A DNA stretch of 64,000 bases from Escherichia coli (lineage in GTDB: Bacteria > Pseudomonadota > Gammaproteobacteria > Enterobacterales > Enterobacteriaceae), in assembly GCF_030013205.1 (NCBI RefSeq), contig NZ_CP122648.1; one strand, given 5' to 3'. Shown one piece after another: positions 24,101 to 26,973 of the stretch. Numbering within the stretch: position 1 is the first letter of the stretch; each line of letters opens with the position of its first letter. Made by a program: the position numbers.

Positions 24101-26973
24101 GTCTCGACACATGTAAAGCTCTATAATAAAAATGGCACAATGACAGATAAGGCAGTACCTTTTGACAACTATAGCACCAATTATCCAGCAGACAGAAGTA
24201 AACCATCAAGTTGGGCCTCAGGAACAGAAGGTTATATAAAAATCAGACTTGATAAAAAAATAATATCCGATATATCAATAAATAACGTATTGCTGGTTTC
24301 TTTGTATGTCAGCCAGTTTCCAACAGAGCACGGACCAATTCCAGTATTTAATGCTTATATTGGCAACTTAAATATTGAAGTTCCACAAGGTTGCACAATT
24401 AATGAGGGAACTAGTTTTACCGTTAATATGCCGGATGTCTGGGCCAGCGAATTAAGTCGGGCTGGTGCTGGAGTGAAGCCCACGGGCGTTTCTCCAGTGG
24501 CAACCACTATTCCGATAAACTGTACGAACAAAGATATTGATGCCGTAATGACGCTGGTTTTTGATGGCAATATTTCATCAACGAGAGATGTTAATGGTCG
24601 GCAAAGCATTATTCAGGCGGAGGATAACCCCGACGTTGGTATTATGATTATGGATAGCCAACAGGAATCCGTAGACTTGAACGCTCTTGCTGCGCATGTT
24701 GGTGTGCCATTTAAGTTAGTTGAAAACCGGGCTGAGTCAGCTCAGACGGCAGATGTGACTTTTCTGTCTCTCCCTGTAAGTACCACAGGGCGACGCCCTG
24801 CTGCGGGTCGTTATAATGCCCTGGCTGTTTTGCGGGTGGAATACCAGTGATGTGTGAGTCAGCGCAGAATCGGATTAGCCCGTTTTTAGCCATCGGTAGG
24901 GTAAAGTTTGATGGAAAATATGGGTTATGTGCCGATGTATCCCACAATGAAATAACCCTCGAGGGAAAGGAATCAGCGCGATGAACAAATTCACGGTGTT
25001 TTGCTGCTAGGTGTGGTATTTCTCGGCTTTATTATTGTACCGTTCTTGATATGGCCGACGGTGGTTGCGCTGGCTGCTTGTATTATTACGCTGAGTTTTC
25101 TGGGGAGATACTGTTCTCTATCCCGCTCATGATCAGGCATATTTCACTTCTGGAATTACAACTTTGGTTATCGGTTGTATATGCGCTTTGTCCATGCCGG
25201 ATGCGACGTGAACGTCTTATTGGCCTACAAAATCATGCAAATTCAATATATTGCATAAACCACGTAGGCCTGATAAGCGTAGCGCATCAGGCAGTTTTTT
25301 TGTTTATCATCAGTCTCAGGTCAGATTGAAATCTGACCTGACCACCTTACGTTAAATCACGAAGCCAGCGATAACCTCTGCTGCGTATACTCCACTAGCC
25401 ACTGACTCACACGAGATTGTTGATCCGCATTCAGCCACATGCCTTGTTTTGTGCGACGCCACAGGGCATCGTCGGCGCGACGGACCCATTCGTGATCCAC
25501 CAGATATTTCAGCTCCGCTTCGTAGAACTCATGACCGAAATCTTCCCCGAGATCGCCTATCGCCCCCGCATTGCCGAGCAGCAGTTCGCTGTTGCTGCCG
25601 TAAGTGCGTGCGTAATGACGTGCCAGCGATTCGGTCAGGAATGGGTAACGGCGGCGCAGGCGAGCGGCATAATCGTCGCGGTCGCCTTCAATGGCACCAC
25701 CCGGCAGCACGCTCTCTTTCGTCCACGCCGGACCAATGCCCTGATAATATGGCGTCAGTTTTTCCAGCGCGTGCTCCGCCAGTTTGCGGTAGGTCGTCAG
25801 CTTGCCGCCAAATACCGACAGCAGCGGGGCTTTGCCGTTTTCATCATGGATATCAAGCGTGTAATCACGAGTAATAGCCTGCGGCGAGTCGGACTCATCA
25901 TCACACAGCGGACGCACACCGGAGTAGGTCCAGACGATATCGTCCCGGCTTAACTGCTTTTTAAAGTGCGTGTTATACACTTTCAGCAGGTAATTGATTT
26001 CACTCTCTTCAATCTTCACTGCTTTTGGATCACCTTTGTATTCCACATCGGTGGTGCCGATGATGGAAAACTCGTCCATCCACGGGATCACGAAGACAAT
26101 ACGTTTATCTTCGTTTTGCAGAATGTAGGCCTGCTTTTGTGTATGCACGCGCGGCACCACAATATGGCTGCCTTTGATCAGGCGAATGCCATAAGGCGAA
26201 GGCAGATGCATCCCGTCGTCGAAGAACTGCTTTACCCACGGGCCGGTGGCGTTCACGAGGCCGCGCGCTTGCCAGCTATATTTTTTGCCGGTATCGATAT
26301 CTTCCGCTTCCACAATCCACAGGCCGTTTTCGCGGCGAGCAGAAGTGGCACGAGTCCGGGTAAGCACTTCACCGCCTTTACGCACCACCATCTGGGCGTT
26401 GGCGAGTACCAGACGGGCGTCGTCTACCCAACAGTCGGAATATTCGAATCCGCGCTTAATTTCCGGTTTTAACACTGAATTTGCGCCAAAACGCAAACCG
26501 GTTGATCCCGGCAGGCTGGTGCGTTTACCCAGATGATCGTACATAAACAGACCAATGCGAATCATCCACGCCGGGCGCAGATGCGGACGATGCGGCAGGC
26601 GAAAACGCATCGGGAAGGCGATATGCGGGGCCATTTTCAGCAGCACTTCACGTTCAGCCAGCGCCTCGCTGACCAGGCGGAATTCATAGTGCTCAAGGTA
26701 GCGTAGGCCACCGTGAATGAGTTTTGAACTGGCGGAGGAGGTCGCGCAAGCGAGATCCTGCGCCTCCAGCATCAGCACGGATAAACCGCGTCCAGCGGCG
26801 TCTGCCGCGATACCAGCACCATTGATGCCGCCACCTATCACAATCAGATCTTTGGTTTCCATGCTGCCCTCATTCACTTTCGTTAAAGCTCATAAATGTT
26901 CGTTATCGAACATATTAGCAAAGAATCGCGCTTTAGGTAACATTGAAAAAACATTTTAGAGTGATATGTATAA

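What the first reader, a model, noticed from the sequence alone, without database searches (positions are those of the whole stretch)
24981..25132. Candidate small hydrophobic protein gene interrupted by a frame change at a T-tract, at the island / yzgL-like junction
An ATG at 24981 with upstream GGAAAGGAA reads MNKFTVFCC then a TAG stop (25008-25010). Shifting +1 at the GTGTTTTGC T-run gives an uninterrupted hydrophobic peptide ...LLLGVVFLGFIIVPFLIWPTVVALAACIITLSFLGRYCSLSRS ending at the TGA at 25130-25132, about 50 aa and one or two TM helices if joined. This could be a frameshifted small membrane protein gene, a small protein starting at the internal TTG (25001) or GTG, or chance. The overlapping 92-aa ORF in the third frame (25051-25329, MADGGCAG...) runs through REP elements and looks non-coding.
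Basis: seen in the sequence. Interest (0 to 1): 0.4.

Follow-up and report, generated by a model that had tools for sequence, protein, structure and literature searches.

The report
Decayed chimeric membrane-gene remnant beside glpD
The hydrophobic "small gene" is the broken stump of a ~200-residue Escherichia membrane-protein gene, fused to the start of a lost PstS-like gene, hit by two single-base deletions and cut off by a repeat element; it is an ordinary pseudogene that RefSeq already flags.

Summary
The ATG (24981), TAG (25008-25010) and 43-codon hydrophobic ORF (25001-25132) are all real. They are not a small-protein gene.

Comparison with other E. coli genomes shows four pieces:
- 24899-24955 is the 3' tail of a PstS-family gene ("PstS1").
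- 24956-25012 is the intergenic RBS plus the first ~11 codons of a second PstS-family lipoprotein gene ("PstS2", MNKFTGVLLLG...).
- 25017-25189 is codons ~12-69 of an Escherichia-only 196-204-aa membrane protein gene that normally lies next to glpD.
- A REP/RIP repeat element follows.

Roughly 1 kb is missing between the PstS2 start and the membrane gene, and the membrane gene's 3' two-thirds are gone.

Two one-base deletions split the frame. One is a C in CACCGG at 24994, not in the T-tract, which is T4 in intact genes too. The other is a G in a G-run at 25102-25105. Restoring both bases gives one colinear 116-codon ORF.

The "non-coding" 92-aa ORF carries the ancestral frame after the second shift. 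ATG to hydrophobic frame is -1/+2, not +1.

All 227 of 5,426 complete E. coli genomes with this allele carry the ATG/TAG/T-tract stretch without indels, and 226 carry the G4 stretch. PGAP annotates it "frameshifted; incomplete". Low interest.

The parts
24899..24955 (+). 3' tail of a PstS-family gene ('PstS1', 503 aa when intact): ...GYVPMYPTMK, stop TAA at 24953-55. The rest of the gene is replaced by the auf-like fimbrial operon.
   Evidence: 83-86% nt identity to the end of PstS1 in PEC403, 30COLEC, O157 SS52 and 21AH007. Intact PstS1 ends ...GYVPLYPTMK*. Homology to the CH4793 auf island ends at 24880.
24956..24980 (+). PstS1-PstS2 intergenic spacer carrying the native PstS2 ribosome-binding site (GGAAAGGAA, 24964-72).
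   Evidence: Aligns base for base with GAGAGAAAGGAATCAGCGCAATG upstream of intact PstS2 genes.
24981..25012 (+). First ~11 codons of the PstS2 lipoprotein gene (intact: MNKFTGVLLLGTALLAGC...), with one C lost from CACCGG at 24994. This produces MNKFTVFCC* in the ATG frame and LLLG in the hydrophobic frame.
   Evidence: The T-run at 24999-25002 is T4 in intact genes as well.
25013..25016 (+). Junction of a ~1-kb deletion (994 bp relative to 30COLEC) that joins the PstS2 start to codon ~12 of the membrane-protein gene. The join would be in frame if the lost C were present.
   Evidence: Left match ends at 25011/12 and right match begins at 25017. Frame arithmetic is checked by the repaired translation.
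25017..25189 (+). Codons ~12-69 of the 196-204-aa Escherichia membrane-protein gene (first two hydrophobic helices plus the RRISLLELQL loop). One G is lost from the G-run at 25102-25105 (G5 in the closest allele).
   Evidence: 91.4% identity to 30COLEC, 89% to O157 SS52, 87% to PEC403, 94.5% to metagenome contig L011. The repaired translation is colinear with the family.
25182..25189 (+). Truncation point: the 8-nt stretch TGCGCTTT occurs both in the gene (codon ~67) and in the left flank of the downstream repeat element. The 3' two-thirds of the gene (~400 bp) are deleted here.
   Evidence: gene ...TATGCGCTTTTCTTC..., SJC33 repeat flank ...AGTGCGCTTTGTTTATGCCGGATGC, window ...TATGCGCTTTGTCCATGCCGGATGC. 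The same truncation is in L011/P0095.
25196..25303 (.). REP / RIP-type repeated extragenic element: two REP palindromes flanking a central motif that hits Rfam ES036 (25229-25271), followed by a T7 run. It supplies the tail of the 92-aa ORF (CPCRMRRERL...).
   Evidence: positions 25182-25355 match a median of 19 places per E. coli genome; ES036, 43.6 bits; K-12 matches the window only from 25182 on.
25001..25132 (+). The 43-codon TTG ORF of the finding. It is a by-product: PstS2 signal-peptide codons, then membrane-gene codons 12-40, then 8 out-of-frame codons (RYCSLSRS) after the G-run deletion.
   Evidence: The exact sequence is absent from the 15-billion-protein collection.
25051..25329 (+). 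The 92-codon ORF. Codons 1-17 are out of frame, codons ~18-46 are the ancestral frame (GEILFSIPLMIRHISLLELQLWLSVVYAL), and the rest is read through the repeat element.
   Evidence: P0095; called as a hypothetical protein by some annotators, e.g. EFJ82743.1.

Best explanation
Window 24899-25189 is a non-functional, chimeric pseudogene remnant in the variable glgP-glpD region of E. coli.

The ancestral arrangement is still intact in strains such as PEC403, O157:H7 SS52 and 30COLEC: glgP, PstS1 (503 aa, membrane-anchored PstS-family protein), PstS2 (330-aa PstS-family lipoprotein), a 196-204-aa multi-helix membrane protein of unknown function, then glpD.

In the window's lineage:
1. A seven-gene auf-like fimbrial operon replaces everything from glgP up to the last ~17 codons of PstS1.
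2. A ~1-kb deletion fuses codon ~11 of PstS2 to codon ~12 of the membrane-protein gene.
3. A second deletion, at an 8-nt stretch (TGCGCTTT) shared with the flank of a REP/RIP repeat, removes the gene's last two-thirds.
4. Two single-base deletions (a C at 24994, a G in the run at 25102-05) split what remains over all three frames.

The hydrophobic peptide is the first two transmembrane helices of the membrane protein. The MADGG ORF holds the next piece.

Shown: homology of each segment, positions of both indels, both deletion junctions, and fixation in the genomes that carry the allele. Inferred: the order of events, and that the stump makes no functional product. It may be transcribed passively as the 3' tail of the fimbrial operon.
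For: - An identical RefSeq genome carries a PGAP pseudogene here, 'hypothetical protein; frameshifted; incomplete; missing C-terminus', at window ~24989-25203. Two other carriers have the same call.
- Intact three-gene neighbourhoods are seen in PEC403, O157 SS52 and 30COLEC.
- Inserting two bases gives one 116-codon ORF, MNKFTGVLLLGVVFLGFIIVPFLIWPTVVALAACIITLSFLGEILFSIPLMIRHISLLELQLWLSVVYAL..., colinear with the family.
- Metagenome contig L011 (P0095) has the same REP truncation but the native N-terminus and G5. The truncation is therefore shared with an allele that lacks the fusion and both frameshifts, which suggests it came first.
- The 40-mer over ATG/TAG/T-tract occurs in exactly 227 of 5,426 genomes (225 identical, 2 at 97.5% over the same 40-base span). 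The G4 40-mer occurs in 226. There is no length polymorphism.
- No sigma-70-like promoter lies in 24600-25450.
- Only one difference between window-allele variants falls in the remnant: A/G at 25139. It changes the family's nearly invariant Arg to His in the ancestral frame (RRISLL to RHISLL), as expected without constraint.
- The 43-aa sequence is not in the 15-billion-protein collection.
Against: - The native PstS2 RBS and ATG are intact, and no strong terminator separates them from the fimbrial adhesin gene (one search finds only one weak candidate, inside that gene). The 9-codon ORF could therefore be translated.
- No expression data could be examined.
- Diversity among the 227 carriers is too low (no substitutions at 24981-25132 in the two variants examined) to test selection on the 43-codon ORF directly.
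- One of the 227 genomes lacks the exact G-run 40-mer and was not examined.
Confidence: 0.93

Rival explanations
1. A genuine small membrane protein (~43 aa) is translated from the internal TTG (25001) or GTG (25013). It would be newly born from the pseudogene remnant and retained in this lineage.
For: The ORF is open for 43 codons and strongly hydrophobic, with one or two TM-like segments. It is fixed in 227 genomes. It lies downstream of an expressed-type fimbrial operon with no obvious terminator in between.
Against: - There is no Shine-Dalgarno sequence ahead of TTG 25001 or GTG 25013 (sequence).
- Its last 8 codons are out-of-frame read-through created by a 1-nt deletion, and its first codons come from a different gene.
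- The family it derives from is conserved only as a ~200-aa protein.
- PGAP calls the locus a pseudogene.
- The exact sequence is absent from the protein collection.
- Fixation in 227 near-identical genomes is equally expected for neutral DNA in a clonal group.
Confidence: 0.03
2. Programmed ribosomal frameshifting, or transcriptional slippage at the T-run, joins the ATG ORF to the hydrophobic frame and yields a ~50-aa protein.
For: A good RBS and ATG are followed 18 nt later by a T4 run, and a stop comes soon after in the zero frame.
Against: - The required shift is -1/+2, not +1. A +1 slip on TTT-T leads into the other frame.
- There is no X XXY YYZ heptamer (the sequence is G GTG TTT TGC).
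- T4 is far too short for transcriptional slippage (established knowledge).
- Intact homologues have the same T4 and simply one more C upstream, so the frame break is a mutation rather than a conserved recoding signal.
- Even if joined, the product ends in out-of-frame residues after a second mutation.
Confidence: 0.01
3. The ORFs are pure chance in non-coding spacer DNA.
For: ORFs of 40-90 codons are common in non-coding frames of this region. No promoter-like site was found.
Against: The DNA is 83-94% identical to defined coding segments of three real genes in other strains, and it is colinear with them after repair of two bases. The RBS, start codon and hydrophobicity are therefore inherited, not accidental.
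Confidence: 0.03

Closest known systems
RefSeq/PGAP pseudogene C7A99_RS27905 in E. coli CFSAN018748 (NZ_CP028192.1): 'hypothetical protein; frameshifted; incomplete; partial in the middle of a contig; missing C-terminus'
   Same: The DNA is 100% identical to the window over 24851-25356. The pseudogene covers window ~24989-25203 and was reached by the same conclusion: a frameshifted, truncated gene.
   Different: PGAP does not record that the 5' end and RBS derive from the PstS2 gene. It also does not locate the two indels or the two deletion junctions.
Intact 196-204-aa hypothetical membrane protein next to glpD (WP_061092826.1 in PEC403, WP_000981061.1 in O157:H7 SS52, WP_000589349.1 in CH4793)
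   Same: Window 25017-25189 matches codons ~12-69 at 87-91% nt identity (75% to the CH4793 type). It lies at the same position and in the same orientation beside glpD.
   Different: The window copy lacks codons 1-11 and ~70-201 and has a frameshift. The family has no Pfam or NCBIfam assignment and, among hits that carry a source name, is found only in Escherichia, so its function is unknown.
K-12 yzgL (b3427), 'putative uncharacterized protein YzgL'
   Same: It sits in the same glgP-glpD interval and is also a stump of the same ancestral gene cluster that runs into REP sequence.
   Different: yzgL is the 5' end of PstS1: residues 1-73 match the N-terminal membrane domain of the 503-aa protein. 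It is a different gene from the one behind the finding. K-12 has no counterpart of window 24899-25181. The window region is therefore not 'yzgL-like' in sequence.

Membership tests
Pseudogene (decayed remnant of a protein-coding gene) | Nucleotide homology to an intact gene in related genomes | tested here: met
   87-94% identity to the 201-aa gene and 83-86% to the PstS1 end plus PstS2 start.
Pseudogene (decayed remnant of a protein-coding gene) | Disabling lesions relative to the intact gene (frameshifts, premature stops, truncation) | tested here: met
   Two 1-nt deletions (24994; 25102-05), a ~1-kb internal deletion, loss of about 130 3' codons, and a TAG at codon 10 of the ATG frame.
Pseudogene (decayed remnant of a protein-coding gene) | No evidence of expression of a functional product | not testable with these tools
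   No transcriptome or ribosome-profiling data were available. Indirect only: no promoter-like site and no SD before the TTG.
Bacterial small membrane proteins (<=50 aa, independently translated) | Own start codon with a ribosome-binding site, in frame with the hydrophobic ORF | tested here: not met
   The SD and ATG at 24981 are in a different frame and stop after 9 codons. TTG 25001 and GTG 25013 have no SD.
Bacterial small membrane proteins (<=50 aa, independently translated) | Conservation of the short ORF as such (length and stop) in related genomes | tested here: not met
   Outside the 227 near-identical carriers, the homologous sequence is part of a 196-204-aa ORF, or of a 114-aa truncated one in L011. 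The RYCSLSRS* tail exists only because of the G-run deletion.
Programmed -1/+1 ribosomal frameshift sites | Slippery sequence compatible with the required shift, conserved among homologues | tested here: not met
   The required shift is -1/+2 and there is no X XXY YYZ motif. Homologues are in frame, with one extra C.
196-204-aa Escherichia membrane protein family (e.g. WP_061092826.1) | Full-length colinear match, including the invariant C-terminal block GPISAQLGFALGYYCQW | tested here: not met
   Only codons ~12-69 are present and the C-terminal two-thirds are deleted. It is a remnant of a member, not a member.

The most novel reading that the evidence does not exclude
The chimeric stump is co-transcribed with the auf-like fimbrial operon, and one of its ORFs is translated and has acquired a role in the ~4% of E. 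coli that carry it. The candidates are the 9-aa MNKFTVFCC peptide from the intact PstS2 RBS and the 43-aa hydrophobic peptide. A role could be, for example, a small membrane modulator or a translated leader affecting stability of the 3' end of the operon. This would be a case of de novo small-protein birth from pseudogene debris.
Probability: 0.03. Interest if true: 0.45.

Novelty: already known. Interest (0 to 1): 0.07.

Why it matters
It matters little biologically. The result removes a false small-protein candidate and shows how gene debris can mimic one: an inherited RBS, inherited transmembrane helices and homopolymer-adjacent indels together look like a frameshifted small gene. As a by-product it clarifies the mosaic history of the glgP-glpD hot spot. 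K-12 yzgL and this remnant are stumps of opposite ends of the same lost PstS1-PstS2-membrane-protein cluster.

Tried and rejected
- **Paralogy of the 201-aa protein with the N-terminal membrane domain of PstS1.** BLASTP gave E = 0.58, so there is no support.
- **Family assignment.** Pfam gave nothing even at E <= 10. NCBIfam gave only a sub-threshold 19.9-bit hit to a septation-inhibitor model with a cutoff of 120 bits. I treat this as noise.
- **Remote homologues.** A profile search of 1.84 billion representatives found 42 hits. Nearly all are fragments of the same family. One is a more distant full-length relative (P0133, metagenome), which gave no functional lead.
- **Structure.** The AlphaFold2 model built on the 17-sequence alignment is all-helical but has pLDDT 51 and pTM 0.34. 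I did not run a fold search because the matches would be meaningless.
- **RNA reading.** The only Rfam hit in 23500-27500 is ES036 at 25229-25271, inside the repeated REP/RIP element and outside the finding.
- **T-tract polymorphism.** None was found. All 227 carriers match the 40-mer around it over its full length.
- **An intact PstS2::membrane-protein fusion.** I looked among the 101 homologues and none starts with MNKFT.
- **Selection test on the 43-codon ORF.** Not informative, because the two carrier variants examined have no substitutions inside it.

Full report
**1. What the sequence shows**

- An ATG at 24981 lies behind GGAAAGGAA (24964-72) and reads MNKFTVFCC, then TAG at 25008-10.
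- A TTG-started 43-codon ORF spans 25001-25132 and reads MLLGVVFLGFIIVPFLIWPTVVALAACIITLSFLGRYCSLSRS.
- A 92-codon ORF spans 25051-25329 and reads MADGGCAG....

The interval lies between the last gene of a fimbrial operon (stop at 24850, + strand) and the stop of glpD (25357-26877, - strand).

The hydrophobic ORF is offset by 20 nt from the ATG, so the shift is +2/-1. A +1 shift at the T-run leads into the MADGG frame instead.

**2. Genomic context**

A RefSeq genome, E. coli CFSAN018748, is 100% identical to the window over 24851-25356. Its gene order is glgBXCAP, a seven-gene chaperone-usher fimbrial operon, a PGAP pseudogene, then glpD-glpE-glpG-glpR. The pseudogene is described as [quoted passage not shown] and covers window ~24989-25203.

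The literature places the auf operon (aufA-G: major subunit, chaperone, usher, two minor subunits, chaperone, adhesin) in the glpD..glgP genomic region of ExPEC (PMC12928451). The window's operon has the same position and architecture. It is only 73.5% identical in nucleotides to the operon at this site in strain CH4793, so I call it auf-like.

**3. The ancestral genes**

Strains PEC403, O157:H7 SS52 and 30COLEC have a different set of genes between glgP and glpD:
- a 503-aa PstS-family protein with an N-terminal membrane domain ("PstS1");
- a 330-aa PstS-family lipoprotein ("PstS2", MNKFTGVLLLGTALLAGC...);
- an intact 200-201-aa hydrophobic "hypothetical protein".

Strain CH4793 has auf, a YbbD-family gene, a frameshifted ORF and an intact 201-aa homologue.

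The ~200-aa family behaves as an orphan:
- It has no Pfam match and no NCBIfam match near the cutoff.
- Among the 101 database homologues, every hit that carries a source name is from Escherichia: E. coli, E. albertii, E. marmotae or Escherichia sp..
- A profile search of 1.84 billion representative proteins found only 42 hits. Almost all are fragments of this family, plus one divergent 184-aa metagenomic relative.
- An AlphaFold2 model is helical but of low confidence (pLDDT 51), so I made no fold comparison.

**4. Anatomy of the window interval**

Local alignments resolve these pieces:
- 24899-24955 is the last ~17 codons and stop of PstS1 (window ...GYVPMYPTMK*, intact ...GYVPLYPTMK*).
- 24956-24980 is the PstS1-PstS2 spacer with the native PstS2 RBS.
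- 24981-25012 is the first ~11 codons of PstS2, at 83-86% identity. One base is missing: intact genes read TTCACCGGTGTTTTAC and the window reads TTCA-CGGTGTTTTGC. The lesion is a lost C at 24994. The T-run (24999-25002) has four T in both.
- 25013-25016 is a junction.
- 25017-25189 is codons ~12-69 of the membrane-protein gene. Identity is 91.4% to 30COLEC, 89% to O157, 87% to PEC403 and 94.5% to a metagenomic allele. One G is missing from a G-run: 25102-05 is G4, against G5 in the closest allele.
- At 25182-25189 the gene sequence gives way to the flank of a REP/RIP-type repeat. The 8-nt stretch TGCGCTTT is present both in the gene and in the repeat's left flank in strain SJC33. This fits a deletion between short repeats that removed the last ~130 codons.

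From 25182 on, the DNA matches a median of 19 places per E. coli genome. It contains the Rfam ES036 hit at 25229-25271 and is all that K-12 shares with this interval.

**5. Repair test**

I inserted one C at 24994 and one G in the G-run. The three partial frames then join into a single 116-codon ORF:

MNKFTGVLLLGVVFLGFIIVPFLIWPTVVALAACIITLSFLGEILFSIPLMIRHISLLELQLWLSVVYALCPCRMRRERL...

It is colinear with PstS2 for residues 1-11 and with the membrane family from residue ~12. Each ORF is therefore explained:
- The hydrophobic ORF is PstS2 signal-peptide codons, then the first two hydrophobic helices of the membrane protein, then eight out-of-frame codons.

**6. History and population data**

A metagenome contig (L011, protein P0095) has the same REP truncation, but with the native N-terminus (MNKIRLYIPP...) and G5. 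That gives an open 114-codon ORF. The truncation is thus shared with an allele that lacks the PstS2 fusion and both frameshifts, which suggests it came first.

In complete E. coli genomes:
- 4,136 of 5,426 have some homologue of 24960-25185.
- Only 227 have the window's allele.
- A 40-mer spanning the ATG, TAG and T-run occurs in exactly those 227: 225 are identical and 2 are 97.5% identical over the same 40-base span. There is no T-tract length variation.
- The G4 40-mer occurs in 226.

The two variant carriers I examined differ from the window at five positions in 506 bp, and none lies in 24981-25132. One of them (25139 A/G) turns the family's nearly invariant Arg into His in the ancestral frame. 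That is what relaxed constraint would produce.

The same family is frameshifted in other strains, at T-runs in SJC33. A 186-member cluster also starts in the MADGG frame, which implies a frameshift near the same point.

Gene callers have sometimes called the 92-aa ORF, a 62-aa sub-ORF, or an upstream 45-aa ORF. The 43-aa sequence is not in the 15-billion-protein collection.

**7. Expression signals**

No sigma-70-like promoter was found in 24600-25450. TTG 25001 and GTG 25013 have no Shine-Dalgarno sequence. The only good RBS serves the 9-codon ORF.

A -1 recoding site would need an X XXY YYZ heptamer, and the sequence is G GTG TTT TGC. T4 is too short for transcriptional slippage (established knowledge of these mechanisms). 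By inference, the remnant may be carried passively on read-through transcripts of the fimbrial operon, up to the REP hairpin and T7 run at about 25265-25303.

**8. Verdict**

The finding is a real sequence feature with an ordinary explanation. It is a chimeric, twice-frameshifted, 3'-truncated pseudogene remnant that RefSeq already flags. It is not a small-protein gene and not a recoding site, and the region is not homologous to K-12 yzgL. K-12 yzgL is itself the 5' stump of PstS1: its residues 1-73 match the N-terminus of the 503-aa protein.

What remains open is whether any of the short ORFs is translated. That cannot be tested here, and I give it a few percent.

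Noticed in passing
L004 (NC_000913.3) 2725-3006, K-12 yzgL; compare L003 1441-2949: K-12 YzgL residues 1-73 match the N-terminal membrane domain of a 503-aa PstS-family protein that is intact in PEC403, O157 and 30COLEC. After that point the ORF runs into unrelated sequence. yzgL is therefore a 5' gene stump, not an independent 93-aa protein gene.
   Followed up: partly
window ~16000-25356 (glgP end to glpD end); loci L002, L003, L005, L006, L009, L010: The glgP-glpD interval is a mosaic hot spot with at least five configurations:
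- yzgL only (K-12);
- PstS1-PstS2-201aa;
- the same cluster disrupted by IS1 (21AH007);
- auf + YbbD-family + ~258-aa ORF + 201aa (CH4793);
- auf-like + remnant (the window, 227 of 5,426 genomes).
   Followed up: partly
window 22542-24880 vs L006 6-2336: The window's seven-gene fimbrial operon is only 73.5% identical in nucleotides to the operon at the same site in CH4793. Two divergent auf-type alleles therefore occupy one locus.
   Followed up: no
L002 3970-4570 (SJC33); protein cluster of P0049 (186 members): The ~200-aa membrane gene is frameshifted independently in other strains, at homopolymer runs (T-runs in SJC33). Proteins of the P0049 cluster start in the MADGG frame, which implies a frameshift near the same point as in the window. 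Recurrent decay suggests the gene is dispensable in many lineages.
   Followed up: partly
L013 121-1499 (metagenome ERZ28569670) and L006 3193-4576: The most distant homologue of the membrane protein (P0133, 184 aa) is preceded, with overlapping stop and start, by a 278-aa protein. That protein is 49-58% identical to the frameshifted ORF upstream of the 201-aa gene in CH4793. This is a conserved two-gene module with no family assignment.
   Followed up: partly
window 25229-25271 (+): There is an Rfam ES036 (CssrF) hit above the gathering score (43.6 vs 37.6 bits). It lies between two REP palindromes in a repeated element whose surrounding stretch (25182-25355) matches a median of 19 places per E. 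coli genome. The hit probably reflects the repeat family rather than a locus-specific sRNA.
   Followed up: no
window 25316-25341: A perfect 12-bp inverted repeat with a 2-nt loop (TCAGGTCAGATT GA AATCTGACCTGA) lies immediately beyond the glpD stop codon. It has no adjacent T-run on the glpD strand.
   Followed up: no
E. coli genome searches: The ATG/T-tract 40-mer is found in 227 genomes, but the G-run 40-mer in only 226. One carrier differs around 25084-25123 and was not identified. It could be a G5 form with the longer open frame.
   Followed up: no
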